DNA of 64,000 nt, taken from contig JAEOSK010000008.1 of the NCBI GenBank assembly GCA_016840405.1, positions 1 through 64,000 on the forward strand. Reading direction: 5' to 3'. Below are positions 11,346-57,062 of this stretch, piece by piece (the stretch's first letter is position 1; every line of letters starts with the position of its first letter). Position numbers and translations under genes: made by a program. The notes under the pieces were generated by a model, which did not search any database, was not told the DNA's origin, and saw nothing but the letters and a program-made list of their open reading frames with translations. The DNA is from Candidatus Hermodarchaeum yapensis. Lineage in GTDB: Archaea; Asgardarchaeota; Hermodarchaeia; Hermodarchaeales; Hermodarchaeaceae.

Positions 11346-11466
11346 GGGCTCGTAGCTTAGCCAGGCAGAGCGTCGGGCTCTTAAGCCGAATGTATCGGAG
11401 ACACCCGATTGTCGGGGGTTCGAATGATCGTGTACTACGATACCGAAAGTCCCCCCGAGCCCGCCA
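11346..11466 (+). tRNA. tRNA-Lys(CUU) with two introns (37/38 at 11384-11402; 59/60 at 11425-11449), CCA encoded
   Basis: Cloverleaf GGGCTCG/CGAGCCC; anticodon CTT 11380-82; both introns form bulge-helix-bulge (CTCT/GGAG, TTCG/CGAA). Confidence 0.92.
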
Positions 11467-12547: not shown

Positions 12548-12644
12548 GCCTCGGTAGCTCAGTGGTAGAGCGACAGCCTCGTAAACAGTCATTGACTTTC
12601 GAGATAGCTGCTGGTCGCGGGTTCAATCCCCGCCCGAGGCTCCA
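12548..12644 (+). tRNA. tRNA-Thr(CGU) with 37/38 intron (12584-12605), CCA encoded
   Basis: GCCTCGG/CCGAGGC acceptor stem; anticodon CGT 12580-82; BHB helix CTCG/CGAG. Confidence 0.93.
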
Positions 12645-50467: not shown

Positions 50468-50983
50468 CTAGCCGATGCAAGACCAAGCTATTTGACGAAA
50501 TCCTTCTGTAACGCCTTGGCCTTCTTTTGCGCTAGTCTCAAAATATCCCCAGCCCAGCTGTTGTGCATATCTCATTGCATCCTCTGATGAAACTTGACGT
50601 TGATCCACTAAATCGACCTTATTTGCTATCAACACTGATGGAATCGCACCAGTTACTTGAGCAACTTCGTCATACCATCCTGGAATATTATCAAAGGTAT
50701 GACGTCTTGTCACATCAAAAACTAAGATAATCCCTGCGGCTCCTCGATAAAAGACAGGACGTACCGAACTAAAATGCGGTTGACCTGCTAAGTCCCAAAG
50801 TTGTAATCGGACTAATGTATCACCAAAATTCAGTTCTTTCACCGCAAACGAAGTACCAACAGTCATGATGTATGATTCGCGGAAATGCCCCTCAGTGTAA
50901 CGGATAATGAGACTAGTTTTGCCGACGGCACCATCGCCAACGACGCAGACTTTGAGAACATACTGGCGTTGCGGTGTACTCAT
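50468..50983 (-). CDS. Rab/Ras-like small GTPase
   Basis: G1 GDGAVGKT, G2 T, G3 WDLAGQ, FYRGA, G4 NKVD, G5 ETSAK; start ATG 50983 assumed. Confidence 0.93.
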   Translation of the reverse strand: MSTPQRQYVLKVCVVGDGAVGKTSLIIRYTEGHFRESYIMTVGTSFAVKELNFGDTLVRLQLWDLAGQPHFSSVRPVFYRGAAGIILVFDVTRRHTFDNIPGWYDEVAQVTGAIPSVLIANKVDLVDQRQVSSEDAMRYAQQLGWGYFETSAKEGQGVTEGFRQIAWSCIG

Positions 50984-51132
50984 GTAGCCTTTCTCCTCGA
51001 GGGTTCGGTTTGTCTGACTTACGTTTGTGGCAATATATTGGTTTCGTTCATCCATGGGTTTTCTTTCAGTTAATTAATTTCGCCCAATGATTTTTATGGA
51101 CTTGAAGGATGTTAGGGGCAAGCTAGTCTAAC

Positions 51133-54123
51133 ATGGAGTGCGAATACGCAATGACGGTAACAGAGCTACCGAAGCAGTTCGATTTACCTTCTTTAGAAGA
51201 GGAAGTGCTACTCTTCTGGAAAAAGAATAAAGTGTATGAAAAGGTAACAGAACAGCTTTCGGGTCAACCAGTATTCAGGTTCTTAGATGGGCCCCCATAC
51301 ACTACCGGTGCAATCCACCTGGGAACGGCGTGGAACAAAATTCTGAAAGACATGGTATTACGTTTTCGTCGGATGCAGGGGTTCCGCGTTTTGGACACAC
51401 CTGGTTTTGATATGCACGGACTACCAATTGAAGTGCACGTAGAAAAAGCTCTGGGCATTAAATCGAAATTAGATATTGAAAGCAAGATTGGTGTTGATAA
51501 ATTCATAAAACAATGCCAGGATTTCGCCCTTTCTAACTTAGACCAGATGACAGAACAGTTCAAACGCACAGGAGTGTGGATGAACTGGAATCGCCCATAT
51601 CGCACGATTGATAATCCCTACATTGAAGGCACTTGGCACTTGATGAAACGAGCCTCTGAACGGGGATTGCTCTATCGCGGGTTACGATCAATAGATTGCT
51701 GCGTACGCTGTGAGACTGCAATTGCCAAACGAGAGCATGAATACAGAACAGTTGAGGATTATTCGATTTGGGTAAAGTTTCCAATAATCGGGAAAACTAA
51801 CGAGTATGTTGTGATTTGGACTACAACGCCATGGACACTTCCTGCTAATATGGCAGTGATGGTCAATCCCGAATTTGAATACCTTCGCGTGAAGGTTGAT
51901 AAGGAAGTGTGGATTCTAGCCAAAGGGCTAGCCAATATCATATTACAAGGGCTACTCAACAAACAATACGAAGTGGTTGAAGAGGTCAAAGGCACAAAGC
52001 TTCTGGGAATCCGTTATGAACATCCGTTGCTAGATGAGGTGCCCCGACAGGCAAAATTCCATGATGCTTCTGAGAAAGTTCATTCCGTCGTCTTAAGTGA
52101 GGAGCATGTGACCTTAGAGCAAGGAACAGGTCTGGTACATATGGCTCCTGGTCATGGTCCTCAGGACTTCGAGGTGGGTGAGCGTGAGGAAATTCCCATT
52201 TTTTGCCCAGTTACGCTTTCTGGCTCATTCTCGGAAGAGGGTGGAAAATATGCAGGAATGAAAGTTCAAGATGCAAATGAAGTTATTCTACAAGACTTAC
52301 GCCGAAAGAAGCTCCTAGTTCATCAAGATACAATTGAACATGAATATGCTCACTGTTGGCGGTGTGGTAGTCCTCTTGTATACCTTGCTACTGATCAGTG
52401 GTTCCTTCGCGTTAGCGAAATTCGAGAAGAAATTATTAAAAAGAACGAAGATGTCTACTGGGTACCTGATTGGGCGGGTCATACTTGGTTCCGCAATTGG
52501 GTACAAAATCTTCGGGATTGGTGTATTTCCAGGCAACGCTATTGGGGTGCTCCTCTACCAATCTGGAAATGTGAAAAATGTGAGGAAATTGAAGTCATAG
52601 GAAGCATAAACGAACTAAAAAAGAAATCAGGAAAAATCCCTGAGAACCTTCATCGACCCTGGATTGACGAACTCTCATGGCCCTGTTCGAAATGCAAAGA
52701 CACAATGAAACGGGTCTCTGATGTGTTAGATGTCTGGCTAGATAGCGGCGTAGCTCCATGGGCAAGTCGCTGGGCAACTTATGGCACAACAGACTTTGAT
52801 AATTGGGAAACAGCTGACTTCGTAATGGAAGGCAAAGATCAGATTAGCAGCTGGTTCAACACCCTCTTTAACTCAACAATGCTTGCAGATAACCGAGAAC
52901 CTTACAAAAGTGTCTATATGCATGGATTTACAGCTGATGAGCAAGGTCGACCAATGTCAAAATCAAAAGGCATTGGTGTCTTTCCCGAAGAGGTGGTGGA
53001 GAAATTTGGTGCTGAGACACTACGAATGTATTGTATCAAAAGCACCGGGCCCGGTGAAGATATGCATTTTCTCTGGAAAGATGTCGAAGATACCCGCCGT
53101 TCACTTTCAATTCTCTGGAACGTCTACGTCTTTGCAACAACTTTCATGAAAGCCGCGGGATATGATCCACAGGCTCATAAATTAAAACCTCAATCCTTAC
53201 AAAATGAAGATCGATGGATTCTCTCCCAGTTGCATCTATTAATCAAACAAGTTGGCGAGCGTCTTGAAAAATACGAACTACCATTTATACCACGGTTGAT
53301 GGAGTCCTTCATCGTCAAAGATTTGAGTCGTTGGTATATCAAGCTGATAAGACCACGAACTTGGGTGAGCTCTCAAGACGAAACAAAAACACAGGCATTT
53401 ACAACGCTTTACTACGTCTTACGAACCCTCTTAGCGGTACTAGCTCCCGTTCTACCTTTTCAGACAGAAAAAATGTATAAAGCCCTCGTTCGTTCTGCTG
53501 AGCCTGATGCCCCATTAAGCGTTCACATGCTTCCATGGCCCAAGGTCAACGAAAAGCTAATTGATCCTGAGCGGAGCCAAGAAATGGAATGGGTTTCTGA
53601 TATAGTAGAAGCAACTCAATTCATTCGCCAAGAGGAAGGTTTGAAGCTGCGTTGGCCCTGTCAACGTTTAGTCATTGTACCTTCAAAGAAAGAGTTCCAA
53701 CTTGAACATTTCAGCGACGTTGTAGCAAGTCAGACCAATGTAAAAACAGTTGAAATCCAAAAGAAAGCTAAAGGTGATTTACTCAAAAACAAAGAATTAC
53801 CTTTTGCTACGATATACCTCGACATCAGTGAAACTCCTGAAATTCGTGCTGAACGCCTTTCACGCGATCTTATTCGACAAATACAAGCAACCCGAAAGAA
53901 ACAAGGACTTCATGTTACGCAACGCATCAAACTGTATGTGGCGGCTAAATCATTGGAACTACGAAAAGCCGTAGAAATGACTCGAGATAGCATTGCTTCA
54001 AAAGTTGGTGCTATAACACTCGAAGTAGAGGAGAAAATACCTACCGTAAAGGGGCTTGCGGTTGGAAAACTCACATTTGCCAATAAGGAAGTTCAATTCG
54101 GCTTTATCGTCCAAGAGAAATAG
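51133..54123 (+). CDS. ileS: Isoleucine-tRNA ligase
   Basis: DGPPY..G.IHLG, WTTTPWT, GTG.VH.AP.HG, DWCISRQRYWG, EGKDQ, PMSKS. Confidence 0.95.
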   Translation: MECEYAMTVTELPKQFDLPSLEEEVLLFWKKNKVYEKVTEQLSGQPVFRFLDGPPYTTGAIHLGTAWNKILKDMVLRFRRMQGFRVLDTPGFDMHGLPIEVHVEKALGIKSKLDIESKIGVDKFIKQCQDFALSNLDQMTEQFKRTGVWMNWNRPYRTIDNPYIEGTWHLMKRASERGLLYRGLRSIDCCVRCETAIAKREHEYRTVEDYSIWVKFPIIGKTNEYVVIWTTTPWTLPANMAVMVNPEFEYLRVKVDKEVWILAKGLANIILQGLLNKQYEVVEEVKGTKLLGIRYEHPLLDEVPRQAKFHDASEKVHSVVLSEEHVTLEQGTGLVHMAPGHGPQDFEVGEREEIPIFCPVTLSGSFSEEGGKYAGMKVQDANEVILQDLRRKKLLVHQDTIEHEYAHCWRCGSPLVYLATDQWFLRVSEIREEIIKKNEDVYWVPDWAGHTWFRNWVQNLRDWCISRQRYWGAPLPIWKCEKCEEIEVIGSINELKKKSGKIPENLHRPWIDELSWPCSKCKDTMKRVSDVLDVWLDSGVAPWASRWATYGTTDFDNWETADFVMEGKDQISSWFNTLFNSTMLADNREPYKSVYMHGFTADEQGRPMSKSKGIGVFPEEVVEKFGAETLRMYCIKSTGPGEDMHFLWKDVEDTRRSLSILWNVYVFATTFMKAAGYDPQAHKLKPQSLQNEDRWILSQLHLLIKQVGERLEKYELPFIPRLMESFIVKDLSRWYIKLIRPRTWVSSQDETKTQAFTTLYYVLRTLLAVLAPVLPFQTEKMYKALVRSAEPDAPLSVHMLPWPKVNEKLIDPERSQEMEWVSDIVEATQFIRQEEGLKLRWPCQRLVIVPSKKEFQLEHFSDVVASQTNVKTVEIQKKAKGDLLKNKELPFATIYLDISETPEIRAERLSRDLIRQIQATRKKQGLHVTQRIKLYVAAKSLELRKAVEMTRDSIASKVGAITLEVEEKIPTVKGLAVGKLTFANKEVQFGFIVQEK

Positions 54124-54170
54124 ACGCCCCAACACATTTAAGCCGCAGTAAAACATCACAAAATTCACAA

Positions 54171-54316
54171 GGGCACGTGGCTTAGCCTGATGGAGCGCCG
54201 AACTTCTGCGTCCTTGGCGCAGAGTGTGTATGCCTTATATGGTGTCGCTCCGAACATTCGATTGCGAAGCCTAGGTAAGCCGGAGGTCGCGGGTTTGAAT
54301 CCCGCCGTGCCCACCA
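54171..54316 (+). tRNA. tRNA-Ile(UAU) with two introns (29/30 at 54201-54231; 37/38 at 54240-54277), CCA encoded
   Basis: Removing two BHB-bounded introns gives the arm CCGGC-CT-TAT-AA-GCCGG; acceptor GGGCACG/CGTGCCC, discriminator A73. Confidence 0.82.
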
Positions 54317-54327
54317 CTCTTCTACGG

Positions 54328-55854
54328 CTATTTCGATTGCCTTTTGTCATCAAATTTCTTTGCGGCAGTTTCGAAATCTATCCCAAATCCCGTTTCTTTT
54401 GTTAATCGAGTTCGTACCTGCATAAATACTGGAAACCGCGTAGCCTGACCGACAACAAGAGCTTCGCCTACAGTTAGACTTGAGATTGAAGTAAGAGTTG
54501 CCTTAGTAATTTTTTCTGACGTAGCTCGGATATGATCTAAATCATAAGGATTTGTGATTCGAAGGAAGATATTCGTACCGCATTGAGACAGAACAGTTGT
54601 TGACAGACGAACAGGGCGCTGCGAAATAATACAAAGTGACAAATTGTACTTACGCCCTTCACGTGCTACTGTTTCAAGAACTCCTTTAGAAAACGCAAGC
54701 GTGCGGCGTGCCTGAGGGCAGAATTGGTGGGCCTCTTCAAGAAACACAATGGTGGGAGGAATCGTTCCGTCTCTTCGCAGATCAAATAGATAGCGAAGAA
54801 CTGCATCAACAATAATCTGTTTCTTTTGTAAACTCACCGTTTCACTCATATCAAGAATGACCGCTTGTCCGGGTTTCATCAGTTTTGACCAATCAGGTGT
54901 AGGTGTTTTTCCAAAAAGTCGAAGACTTTGAAGATTATCTAACCAACCTAGAAGGGCATCGCGGGTCCTCACATTAATTGAAGGGTCTTGTTCGAGAGCA
55001 GTGATTAAATCCCCGATATCGTATGGCTGTCCTTTTCGCGTGCTTCGAAGGGTGCGGATTACCCGAGTAAGCTCTCGAACCTGAATGGTGCCCATATCTG
55101 GGGCATACGTTGCAAATGCTTTTGCACTCATTCGAGGTGTAGCAATTTCAACTAGTGGACTTTGGATGACAGTTATTTGGTCTTCGAAACTTTTTCCCTT
55201 GGCTCCACGCGATTCTGCTAGCCCCGTATATTCACCATGCACATCAATCACAAGTAACGCCGGACGACCTTGACTGGATTTTCGTGCAAGAAGCTCTTCC
55301 AACATTACAGATGCAGCGTAACTTTTTCCTGCCCCACTCATCGCAAGAAGCGCCACATGCTTTTGATACATTTTCGTCAAATTAAAGGTTGCAGGAATAT
55401 TATGGAATAATAACTGTCCGAGATGAACCCCATCTTTAGTAAAACCCAGAAATTCACCTAGAACCTTTGTATCTGGGGCCTTTACCTGAGTGCCAGGTGA
55501 AGGAGGGTAGGTAATCCTTCGAACATGGCCGTTTTCGAATATACCAAGGGGCTTAGCCTCAGCTAGCACATATTCCCATCGATCTATAGGAAAAATGGCG
55601 TTGAAAGCTTTCCCTGAGCGTGTAAACTCATGCACCGCATCAATTTGCGAAAAATACCGATTTGTCTTGTAAACTTGTTCAACATGAGCAAACACTGTCC
55701 CTTCCTCGGTCTCCATAGAGACATATTGTCCAACATGAATTGGGACTTGTTTATCCGATGGGGTATCATTGCGTTTTCCAATGACAAAGGAAACATTTTC
55801 CGTTGATGGACCATTTTCTGTGCAAACGACGGTTCCAATAGTTTCTGCTTTCAT
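54328..55854 (-). CDS. herA: HerA helicase/ATPase
   Basis: HAS barrel, HVALLAMSGAGKS, DVHGEY, EEAH, REGRKY, SQRP. Confidence 0.92.
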   Translation of the reverse strand: MKAETIGTVVCTENGPSTENVSFVIGKRNDTPSDKQVPIHVGQYVSMETEEGTVFAHVEQVYKTNRYFSQIDAVHEFTRSGKAFNAIFPIDRWEYVLAEAKPLGIFENGHVRRITYPPSPGTQVKAPDTKVLGEFLGFTKDGVHLGQLLFHNIPATFNLTKMYQKHVALLAMSGAGKSYAASVMLEELLARKSSQGRPALLVIDVHGEYTGLAESRGAKGKSFEDQITVIQSPLVEIATPRMSAKAFATYAPDMGTIQVRELTRVIRTLRSTRKGQPYDIGDLITALEQDPSINVRTRDALLGWLDNLQSLRLFGKTPTPDWSKLMKPGQAVILDMSETVSLQKKQIIVDAVLRYLFDLRRDGTIPPTIVFLEEAHQFCPQARRTLAFSKGVLETVAREGRKYNLSLCIISQRPVRLSTTVLSQCGTNIFLRITNPYDLDHIRATSEKITKATLTSISSLTVGEALVVGQATRFPVFMQVRTRLTKETGFGIDFETAAKKFDDKRQSK

Positions 55855-55883
55855 TCAAGTTTCATCCTACAATCAAATCATTT

Positions 55884-57062
55884 CTACTGAAATGGCATTC
55901 TTTCACGGCGTAATTTCAATACACTCTCCGGATAACCAATCCGGCTCGTCAGTTGGTTCAAGAGGAATTCTAGATCACGCTCGATTAACCGAGCTTGTGA
56001 ATCTGCATCAATTAATACAGAAGGAAGGGCAAATTCCTCGTTATCAGAAGACATAGGAAGCAACATTGCCCCAATTTTTTCAATTATACTCTTTGGGTCA
56101 TAAGATCCTGTAAATACCTCAACACGGAGCGGATAATCATATTCTGCCGTTCGTAAGTAAAAACAAACAAGCCCATTTTCTTGTTGGTTGGGCCCTTCAC
56201 CTTCAAGTGTATTTTCGATATTAGAATTATCTAGTCGCAGTATGGGTGATCGCTCACCTACATCGAGAATTCGGAAAAAGAAGTCTGAATCATAACTAAG
56301 CTGCAACACAGAGCGATAATCCAAATGAAGCATTGGTTCCAACTCAGGATGTCGAGTAATCAGATGTGGAAGTATCTCACCGAGAATGTGAATAAACCGT
56401 TGACTTCTGCTGTCTTTCACAACACCTGCTAGGAGCGTCCCTGTTTCCTCGCTCTTCGTGTACAGTTTTTCGAATAATTCGATAATTTCACCGTACTTTC
56501 TTGAGAATATGGATTGTTGTGATGGTCGATCATTAAGATGGGGCCTTAGCGAGCCATCCAATAACAACAACTCAGCAGGGTGATGATCTTGTACTCGGAT
56601 AGCCAATTCCAATTCGCCTTTCAATCGTTCAAGTGATGCATTAAGCTCTGCTTCTCGTCGAGATATTGGAGTTAGTTCTGCTTTCACAGTTGGCAGCGTT
56701 GTTTTTTCAGGAAAATAAATTGCAGAAACCCGATTAGAAGGTGTATATTCAAAAATGGTAGCATTAGCCCGAGTTATAACTAATTCCACACCGCGCAATG
56801 TATTTTTCAACAGTCCACCATCAACACCACACACGCGGAGACCGCTTAATTCCGTAGGAGTAACTTGACGGGCTAAATGATTATCAACAATGTATCGCTG
56901 AGCAAGCGGTAAGTCCGTTAAGAGATCAATCTTGTGGCGTTCACTTCGAAGAATAGAAGCAAAGGAATTTCTTTTCTCTTCTAACATTTGGATTTGTTGG
57001 ACAATTTTTTCTAATGCCTCATCCAACGCCCATAACTCGCGAATAGTCTTCATTCCTATCAT
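55884..57062 (-). CDS. nurA: NurA nuclease
   Basis: GVDGG, LLDGSL, GVVKDS, RVE, P.VL..AD..AR. Confidence 0.88.
   Translation of the reverse strand: MIGMKTIRELWALDEALEKIVQQIQMLEEKRNSFASILRSERHKIDLLTDLPLAQRYIVDNHLARQVTPTELSGLRVCGVDGGLLKNTLRGVELVITRANATIFEYTPSNRVSAIYFPEKTTLPTVKAELTPISRREAELNASLERLKGELELAIRVQDHHPAELLLLDGSLRPHLNDRPSQQSIFSRKYGEIIELFEKLYTKSEETGTLLAGVVKDSRSQRFIHILGEILPHLITRHPELEPMLHLDYRSVLQLSYDSDFFFRILDVGERSPILRLDNSNIENTLEGEGPNQQENGLVCFYLRTAEYDYPLRVEVFTGSYDPKSIIEKIGAMLLPMSSDNEEFALPSVLIDADSQARLIERDLEFLLNQLTSRIGYPESVLKLRRERMPFQ

What the first reader, a model, noticed from the sequence alone, without database searches (positions are those of the whole stretch)
54171..54316. Cryptic two-intron tRNA-Ile with UAU anticodon and compensatory A19-U56, directly after ileS
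Seen: the anticodon sits on an 8-nt mini-exon (GCCTTATA, 54232-39) between a 31-nt and a 38-nt intron, both with BHB motifs (GCGC/GTGT and CTTA/TAGG). The near-universal G19 and C56 are both changed (A at 54190, T at 54296), preserving the tertiary pair and arguing for function. The gene starts 47 bp after the ileS stop. Established: most archaea read AUA with agmatidine-modified tRNA-Ile(CAU) made by TiaS, whereas eukaryotes use an intron-containing tRNA-Ile(UAU); UAU is rare in archaea. Inference: eukaryote-like AUA decoding in this lineage.
Basis: partly seen in the sequence, partly recalled or inferred. Interest (0 to 1): 0.7.

Follow-up and report, generated by a model that had tools for sequence, protein, structure and literature searches.

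The report
Self-marking intron in Asgard tRNA-Ile
This is a real two-intron isoleucine tRNA that reads the AUA codon without the usual archaeal enzyme (a strategy already known from a few archaea), and its second intron folds back on the tRNA to imitate an enzyme-binding signal that probably gets the first anticodon base modified so that methionine codons are not misread.

Summary
Confirmed: a 77-nt tRNA-Ile(UAU) with bulge-helix-bulge introns at 29/30 and 37/38 and A19/U56, 47 bp after ileS, in a Hermodarchaeia-type Asgard archaeon. Exons are invariant in 14 genus genomes while introns vary; one relative lacks the 29/30 intron at the predicted junction. Neither TiaS (0/19 family genomes) nor tRNA-Ile(CAU) was found. 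UAU instead of TiaS is published for Nanoarchaeum, Korarchaeum and ARMAN; here it also covers Loki-, Hel-, Odin-, Borr- and Atabey-type Asgards. Heimdallarchaeia keep TiaS and a different IleRS, so 'eukaryote-like' is analogy, not shown descent. A19-U56 is one family-level change and weak evidence alone.

The new part: 73 of 75 Asgard UAU introns carry G-(12 nt)-ACA (2 of 54 control introns). The intron pairs with exon 21-32 (106/108 pairs, compensatory changes), making a T-arm/acceptor-stem mimic with U34 where U55 sits and ACA where CCA sits. Most likely Cbf5 makes pseudouridine-34 before splicing, pre-empting Elp3 and AUG misreading. The fold is supported; the modification is inferred (about 50%). 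I found no paper on it. This scan noted both the tRNA and the self-guiding idea before on other genomes; I reached them before reading those notes.

The parts
51133..54123 (+). ileS, isoleucine-tRNA ligase (996 aa), the only one in the assembly; belongs to an IleRS subgroup shared by UAU-using Asgards
   Evidence: TIGR00392 906 bits; single copy by tblastn; trees
54137..54141 (+). TATA-like TTTAA box 34 nt upstream of the tRNA; probable own promoter (inferred)
   Evidence: Same box at -33 to -35 in 14/14 genus genomes while the rest of the spacer varies
54171..54200 (+). Exon 1, tRNA positions 1-29; A19 at 54190, G21 at 54192; 54192-54197 (positions 21-26) is the partner strand of the intron-2 fold-back
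54201..54231 (+). Intron 1 at non-canonical position 29/30, 31 nt hairpin; BHB central helix 54195-54198 with 54226-54229
   Evidence: absent in G018 with exact junction; same position in Atabey-type G029
54232..54239 (+). Exon 2, 8 nt, positions 30-37; anticodon UAU at 54236-54238; U34 (54236) is the predicted pseudouridylation target
   Evidence: target inferred from geometry
54240..54277 (+). Intron 2 at canonical position 37/38, 38 nt; BHB central helix 54234-54237 with 54272-54275
54241..54256 (+). Fold-back element in intron 2: 54241-54243 pairs exon 30-32, 54246-54252 pairs exon 20-26, 54253 unpaired, ACA at 54254-54256
   Evidence: 73/75 Asgard UAU introns versus 2/54 controls; pairing probability 0.6 in the two-intron precursor
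54278..54316 (+). Exon 3, positions 38-76; U56 at 54296; A73; encoded CCA

Best explanation
The gene is this organism's only reader of AUA. SHOWN by sequence and comparison: it splices at two BHB motifs to a normal tRNA-Ile(UAU); TiaS and tRNA-Ile(CAU) are not found; the gene lies just behind ileS of a distinct subgroup; intron 2 can refold with exon 20-32 into a long hairpin whose loop holds U33-U34-A35-U36-A37, followed by one unpaired base and ACA. Counted like a tRNA T-arm plus acceptor stem, U34 falls at the place of U55, the intron's 12 nt at 61-72 and ACA at CCA; counted like an H/ACA guide, U34 is 14 nt from the ACA. INFERRED: the precursor adopts this fold first; Cbf5 (with Gar1 and Nop10) binds the ACA through its PUA domain and converts U34, perhaps also U36, to pseudouridine with no separate guide RNA; the RNA then refolds to the BHB forms, the two-subunit endonuclease removes both introns, and the adjacent IleRS charges it. 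Pseudouridine at 34 has no free C5 for Elp3, so the wobble-promoting modification that makes archaeal U34 tRNA-Ile misread AUG cannot form. Confidence by step: functional AUA reader 0.95; fold-back under selection 0.85; it directs pseudouridine-34 0.55; Cbf5 rather than Pus10 0.75 of that.
For: Motif G-(12 nt)-ACA in 73/75 UAU introns from nine families, intron lengths 29-62 nt, spacing kept even when displaced 24-32 nt into the intron in Helarchaeales. Other anticodon introns of the same genomes: 2/54 with the motif anywhere, 1 at the same place, 0 with the exon hairpin. Exon 21-26 pairing: 106/108 cells in register against 31-64% in slid registers, with double changes at 21 (G-C/A-U), 23 (A-U/G-C), 25 (C-G/U-A), 29 and 31. 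Loki-type families rebuild the same 7-bp helix from an intron-internal strand (6-7 of 7 pairs in all 44 genes). Where the 29/30 intron is absent (G018, G041) the pair at G29 is restored. The exon hairpin is the predicted minimum-energy fold in N. equitans, Nanopusillus, Helarchaeales G101 and Loki-type G128. Cbf5 found in 18/18 UAU genomes; Pus10 not found in N. equitans or Woesearchaeota G322; Elp3 in 17/18; Cbf5, Pus10, Elp3, TruD, two EndA subunits and a weak Gar1 hit in this genome. Literature: an acceptor plus T stem-loop 'semi-tRNA' suffices for guide-free Cbf5, which binds ACA better than CCA (PMC2018633); guide-free Cbf5 acts in vivo on a T-loop-like rRNA site (PMC6138745); 15 +/- 1 spacing and double modification of unpaired UNUN (PMC7075261); haloarchaeal U34 tRNA-Ile becomes cnm5U and binds AUG (PMC3895270).
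Against: No modification or RNA data. The element has no upper stem or K-turn, which H. volcanii needs in vivo for guided activity, and both pocket sides are required in vivo (PMC7075261). The most 5' unpaired U of a run is the one modified, which could be U33, since the base facing U33 is usually U or C. The loop has A where C56 would be and is 6-8 nt. In this genome the stem next to the loop is only 2-3 pairs; after intron 1 is removed the fold drops to probability 0.14, and in MK-D1 and B-35 it lies 2.6-3.7 kcal/mol above the minimum. Nanoarchaeal introns have AGA, which is also forced by their BHB end, and N. equitans keeps the hairpin without Elp3. Genomes are related, so counts overstate independence.
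Confidence: 0.5

Rival explanations
1. Same fold, different enzyme: Pus10 (U54/U55 synthase) or another enzyme that measures from a CCA-like end modifies U33/U34.
For: The geometry is a T-arm/acceptor mimic; full-length Pus10 in 15/18 UAU genomes and in this one; Pus10 makes both Psi54 and Psi55 (PMC9602550).
Against: The triplet is ACA, never CCA, and ACA is the Cbf5 preference. Pus10 not found in the complete N. equitans genome, which keeps the hairpin.
Confidence: 0.15
2. The fold-back is a protective or timing structure: it shields U34 from Elp3 or orders folding and splicing, and U34 stays unmodified, with the ribosome rejecting AUG as in Mycoplasma mobile.
For: The fold competes with the D stem and both BHB motifs for the same bases. 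Unmodified UAU decoding exists in bacteria (PMC3575796 listed; detail from own knowledge).
Against: Does not explain a fixed-distance unpaired ACA kept when the helix partner switches or the element moves. Protection would end at splicing while Elp3 is present.
Confidence: 0.2
3. The motif is a relic: an ancestral short intron, formed by inverted duplication of the exon and ending in the BHB strand, later extended; ACA is the decayed old end.
For: In Nanopusillus the 18-nt intron shares nt 7-12 with this one and has AGA at 15-17 as its BHB end.
Against: A dead relic should drift. It shows compensatory change with the exon and 97% retention across nine families while neighbouring intron sequence is unalignable. 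It may explain the origin but not the upkeep.
Confidence: 0.1
4. The tRNA is the direct forerunner of the eukaryotic intron-containing tRNA-Ile(UAU) (strong form of the first reader's inference).
For: Same anticodon and 37/38 intron; yeast Psi34/Psi36 is intron-dependent (PMC9602550); widespread in Asgards.
Against: Heimdallarchaeia keep TiaS; eukaryotic IleRS resembles the TiaS-type enzyme; yeast uses Pus1, a different enzyme family.
Confidence: 0.12
5. Pseudogene, or a splice product with another anticodon.
For: A19, G21 and U56 depart from consensus; relaxed ARAGORN offered a Met(cat) parse.
Against: Unique best splice solution, invariant exons, natural intron loss at the same junction, no other AUA reader.
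Confidence: 0.02

Closest known systems
tRNA-Ile3(UAU) of Nanoarchaeum equitans, Ca. Korarchaeum cryptofilum and ARMAN-2/-4/-5 (PMC8450103, PMC6000648, PMC3239211)
   Same: UAU anticodon, 37/38 intron, no tRNA-Ile2(CAU) and no TiaS. The N. equitans gene (G347) has the same anticodon arm and the same exon fold-back.
   Different: Extra 29/30 intron, A19-U56, conserved link to ileS, Asgard host. The cited papers describe no intron element and no U34 modification.
Guide-independent Cbf5 activity on tRNA U55 and 23S rRNA U2603/2607 (PMC2018633, PMC6138745)
   Same: Stacked T-like stem and acceptor-like helix ending in CCA/ACA bound by the PUA domain; no guide RNA.
   Different: Here the substrate is built transiently by an intron around the anticodon; loop size and sequence differ from a T loop; activity untested.
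Archaeal box H/ACA guide RNAs, including sR-h45 acting on unpaired UNUN (PMC7075261)
   Same: 3' guide pairing upstream of the target, lower stem, ACA 14 nt from U34 and 16 nt from U36.
   Different: Acts in cis; no 5' guide strand, no upper stem with K-turn; the partner strand is the tRNA's own D-stem strand or lies 3' of the ACA.
Box C/D guide nested in the archaeal pre-tRNA-Trp intron (own knowledge, not read here)
   Same: An intron carries the information for modifying position 34 of its own tRNA.
   Different: That system methylates ribose through C/D boxes and fibrillarin; this one has no C/D boxes and points to pseudouridine.
Eukaryotic tRNA-Ile(Psi-A-Psi), intron-dependent Pus1 modification (PMC9602550)
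   Same: UAU anticodon, 37/38 intron, predicted pseudouridine in the anticodon.
   Different: Stand-alone Pus1 enzyme; no evidence here of common descent.
Heavily interrupted Asgard tRNA genes (bioRxiv 10.64898/2026.10.13.758758)
   Same: Several BHB introns per gene, non-canonical sites, missed by standard finders, two EndA subunits.
   Different: The preprint never mentions Ile, UAU, TiaS or Hermodarchaeia and treats introns as passive.

Membership tests
Archaeal tRNA-Ile3(UAU) | Cloverleaf with UAU anticodon, A37/A38, A73, C4-G69 | tested here: met
   determinants from PMC9976931
Archaeal tRNA-Ile3(UAU) | No TiaS in the genome or lineage | tested here: met
   PF08489 not found in G000 (86% complete) nor 18 family genomes; controls ring
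Archaeal tRNA-Ile3(UAU) | No tRNA-Ile2(CAU) | tested here: met
   Only initiator and elongator Met CAU genes found; Ile2 pattern gives real hits only in TiaS-bearing families. Incomplete assemblies and intron-split genes limit this.
Archaeal tRNA-Ile3(UAU) | Spliced, charged with Ile, reads AUA but not AUG | not testable with these tools
BHB tRNA introns | 4-bp central helix between two 3-nt bulges at each junction | tested here: met
   4/4 pairs in both helices, outer helices present, helix strand conserved in 14/14
BHB tRNA introns | Splicing endonuclease able to cut non-canonical sites | tested here: met
   Two PF01974 paralogues of 188 and 202 aa open frames, consistent with the two-subunit type; activity not tested
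Box H/ACA guide RNA | ACA 15 +/- 1 nt from the target U, after a lower stem | tested here: met
   14 nt for U34, 16 for U36; helix of 6-7 pairs (rule)
Box H/ACA guide RNA | Bipartite pocket with 5' and 3' guide strands | tested here: not met
   Only the 3'-side pairing exists; the loop runs straight into the intron
Box H/ACA guide RNA | Upper stem with K-turn or K-loop | tested here: not met
   No upper stem here; an upper hairpin only in Helarchaeales, no K-turn seen by eye. So it may work like, but is not, an H/ACA RNA.
Guide-free Cbf5 substrate (T-arm/acceptor mimic) | About 12 nt of stacked helix, one unpaired base, then CCA/ACA | tested here: met
   73/75 genes; semi-tRNA requirement in PMC2018633
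Guide-free Cbf5 substrate (T-arm/acceptor mimic) | T-loop-like 7-nt loop with target at 55 | tested here: inconclusive
   U-U at 54/55 and A at 58 equivalents, but loop 6-8 nt and A at the 56 equivalent
Guide-free Cbf5 substrate (T-arm/acceptor mimic) | Pseudouridine formed at U34 by Cbf5 | not testable with these tools
   Needs an in vitro assay or modification mapping
Eukaryotic tRNA-Ile(Psi-A-Psi) lineage | Shared descent with the eukaryotic gene and synthetase | tested here: inconclusive
   Indirect tests lean against; eukaryotic tRNA genes were not available

The most novel reading that the evidence does not exclude
Archaeal tRNA-Ile(UAU) introns, from Nanoarchaeota to about half of Asgard species, encode a cis-acting tRNA-minihelix/ACA mimic that recruits Cbf5 without a guide RNA to make a pseudouridylated anticodon, and this tRNA travels with its own IleRS subgroup as a module that replaces TiaS. 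That would be a third, RNA-encoded archaeal solution to AUA/AUG discrimination and a natural intermediate between tRNA-like and H/ACA-guided Cbf5 substrates.
Probability: 0.45. Interest if true: 0.88.

Novelty: new variant of a known kind. Interest (0 to 1): 0.72.

Why it matters
How archaea with a UAU tRNA avoid reading AUG is open: the one archaeal experiment shows that U34 tRNA-Ile gets modified and misreads AUG (PMC3895270). The intron element gives a specific, testable answer and a reason why every archaeal UAU gene seen here keeps a 37/38 intron. It can be tested now, because the cultured Asgards P. syntrophicum MK-D1 and Ca. L. ossiferum carry the gene and the motif and lack TiaS, and guide-free Cbf5 assays are established. 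It would also show a tRNA intron doing work rather than being tolerated, and it splits Asgards into two decoding systems, which bears on what the host of eukaryogenesis used.

Tried and rejected
TIGR03280 was the wrong accession for TiaS; PF08489 was used instead. Relaxed ARAGORN on the genome gave mostly noise, including a false Met(cat) parse. A first reading that Atabey-type genes have A19 with C56 was dropped once two D-loop introns were parsed: they have G19-C56. An alternative numbering U18-G19-A20 was rejected because the longer D loop of genus g2 would then exceed the normal size. Origin from tRNA-Arg(UCU) was considered (identical anticodon stem) but not resolved. A trans-acting circular-intron H/ACA guide was considered; no convincing 5' guide strand was found. 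The sigma-70 promoter scan does not apply to archaea. No Korarchaeum gene could be identified; L334 (ileS beside a UAU tRNA with ACA at intron nt 15) stayed unnamed. The Suzuki and Numata review was not held. Paper searches for Asgard with agmatidine, TiaS or tRNA-Ile/AUA found nothing relevant; subscription journals are mostly not searched. The IleRS trees are quick trees without eukaryotes; the careful search did not finish. No complex prediction was run.

Full report
Observation. Removing 54201-54231 and 54240-54277 from 54171-54316 gives a 77-nt tRNA that ARAGORN calls Ile(tat). The intact gene is missed by ARAGORN but matches Rfam tRNA. Among 135 two-intron splice products with a plausible anticodon arm, this is the only one with a full stem and four pairs in both BHB central helices. 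A19 (54190) and U56 (54296) are real and unique among the tRNAs found in this genome. The gene starts 47 bp after ileS and ends 11 bp before the stop of a convergent herA.

Host and conservation. The nearest ileS relatives come from records named Hermodarchaeota or Promethearchaeota, so the host is a Hermodarchaeia-type Asgard archaeon (86% complete). The gene was found in 17 of 19 family genomes. In 14 genus genomes the exons are identical, while intron 1 has 14 versions and intron 2 has 9. G018 has no 29/30 intron and shows the predicted junction; four genes add a T-loop intron and G018 a D-loop intron. A TTTAA box sits 33-35 nt upstream in all 14, so the tRNA probably has its own promoter.

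It replaces the TiaS route. TiaS was not found here or in 18 relatives; the only CAU tRNAs found are initiator and elongator Met; AUA makes up 11 per 1000 codons. Across 268 Asgard species genomes TiaS is in 122 and missing from whole families. Those families carry tRNA-Ile(UAU): 91 of 106 genomes of the largest Loki-type family match the pattern, and genes were read out for P. syntrophicum MK-D1, Ca. L. ossiferum, Helarchaeales, Odinarchaeum, Borrarchaeum and a family I take from genome size to be Atabeyarchaeia. The 12 UAU-pattern hits examined in TiaS-bearing families were not tRNAs, and real Ile2(CAU) hits occur only in TiaS-bearing families. The patterns miss genes with introns in the searched stretch. 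UAU without TiaS is published for N. equitans, K. cryptofilum and ARMAN; I found no paper on it in Asgards.

The ileS link. ileS lies beside the tRNA in all 17 family members and in Atabey-type, Odin, Borr and one Helarchaeales family, but not in the Loki-type loci checked. IleRS from UAU lineages forms one group (13 rows, SH-aLRT 99), next to two Nanoarchaeota proteins and apart from most TiaS-bearing Asgards; one Helarchaeales enzyme is the exception, and a single clade of all Asgard IleRS is rejected (p-AU 1e-07; quick trees). Eukaryotic cytosolic IleRS scores 750 and 738 bits against H. aukensis and Freyarchaeum but 524 and 534 against this enzyme and Odinarchaeum's. With TiaS kept in Heimdallarchaeia, this makes 'eukaryote-like' an analogy rather than shown descent.

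A19-U56. All 17 family genes have it; other UAU lineages keep G19-C56. It is one change on the family stem, consistent with a kept elbow pair but weak evidence alone. Other lineages show different T-loop departures in this tRNA (A54 in several Loki- and Hel-type genes, C55 in Odinarchaeum).

The element in intron 2. All 75 Asgard UAU genes read have an intron at or next to 37/38. In 73 a G is followed after 12 nt by ACA, although the introns run from 29 to 62 nt and the element sits 24-32 nt further in for Helarchaeales. Among 54 control introns of other tRNAs (two are false calls), 2 have the motif anywhere and none pairs with the exon this way. The G pairs with C32 and the next bases with 31-29. 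The following 6-7 bases pair with exon 26-20 in non-Loki families: 106 of 108 cells against 31-64% for slid registers, with double changes at 21, 23, 25, 29 and 31. This explains the unusual G21. Loki-type families build the same helix from a strand inside the intron. Nanoarchaeal introns of 16-19 nt form the same exon hairpin, with AGA. The fold has probability 0.6 in this gene's two-intron precursor and 0.14 after intron 1 is removed; it is the minimum in N. equitans, Nanopusillus, G101 and G128, and 2.6-3.7 kcal/mol above it in MK-D1 and B-35.

How it most likely works. The element has the dimensions of a tRNA T stem plus acceptor stem, discriminator and CCA, with U34 at the place of U55; equally, U34 is 14 nt from the ACA, inside the H/ACA rule. 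Archaeal Cbf5 modifies such a half-tRNA without a guide, anchors on CCA through its PUA domain and binds ACA more tightly; it does so in vivo on a T-loop-like rRNA site with Gar1. Cbf5 was found in 18 of 18 UAU genomes, while Pus10 was not found in N. equitans or G322. The need is clear: an intronless U34 tRNA-Ile in haloarchaea becomes cnm5U34 and binds AUG, and Elp3 is present here and in 17 of 18 genomes. I infer that Cbf5 makes pseudouridine-34 on the refolded precursor before EndA splices it. The fold is supported by covariation; enzyme, target and product are inferred.

Against. The element fails two H/ACA membership features (no 5' guide, no K-turn stem), and haloarchaeal guides need both in vivo. 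U33 could be the target if it stays unpaired. The stem beside the loop is short in this family. N. equitans keeps the hairpin without Elp3. Related genomes inflate all counts; the independent evidence is about nine families plus Nanoarchaeota.

Earlier notes. After recording this reading I looked up the scan's index. It holds about 50 notes on Asgard tRNA-Ile(UAU) in other genomes, four of which propose the same self-guiding intron. They are not independent evidence and did not change the score.

Verdict. The gene is real. As a tRNA-Ile(UAU) it is a new member of a known kind. The intron element makes it a new variant with a testable mechanism. Interest 0.72.

Noticed in passing
G000:C30:47428-50110, minus strand (outside the window; L392): The cbf5 gene itself has a 42-nt stop-containing insert with a perfect BHB helix between D and K of GIINLD-KPPGP, and an intein with a homing-endonuclease-like domain. 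Cbf5 expression may depend on the same endonuclease. Position relative to the crenarchaeal cbf5 intron not checked.
   Followed up: partly
G000:C73:59310-59386: tRNA-Arg(UCU) has C33 instead of the near-universal U33; the same in G011 and in Atabey-type G029 and G039.
   Followed up: no
L081-L097, L187-L191, L212-L231 (Loki-type family f9): The UAU intron fits a BHB better at 38/39 than at 37/38; the boundary is ambiguous in a run of A (read by eye).
   Followed up: partly
L352 (G103:C3:627450-631850): A dense tRNA array, possibly mobile; its odd tRNA-Ile(GAU) has an intron with G at 2 and ACA at 15, the only control intron with the motif in place.
   Followed up: partly
L334 (metagenome contig): Unidentified archaeon with tRNA-Ile(UAU), ACA at intron nt 15 and a divergently adjacent ileS that falls inside the UAU IleRS group.
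   Followed up: partly
L235-L347 (metagenome hits): Many intronless tRNA-Ile(UAU) genes, apparently bacterial or phage, share the same anticodon arm; the search pattern selected for this.
   Followed up: no
window 50468-51055: Small Ras-family GTPase on the minus strand, divergent from ileS; the ORF list printed it as plus.
   Followed up: partly
window 54328-57062, minus strand: nurA-herA pair convergent with the tRNA; nucS, a Rio2 kinase and a DUF460 protein lie upstream of ileS.
   Followed up: no
window 11346-11466 and 12548-12644: tRNA-Lys(CUU) with 37/38 and T-loop introns and tRNA-Thr(CGU) with one intron; neither reported by the window-wide ARAGORN run.
   Followed up: no
L447 (G101, Helarchaeales f24): Has the UAU tRNA with the best-formed element but an IleRS of the other type, not beside the tRNA; possible gene replacement.
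   Followed up: no
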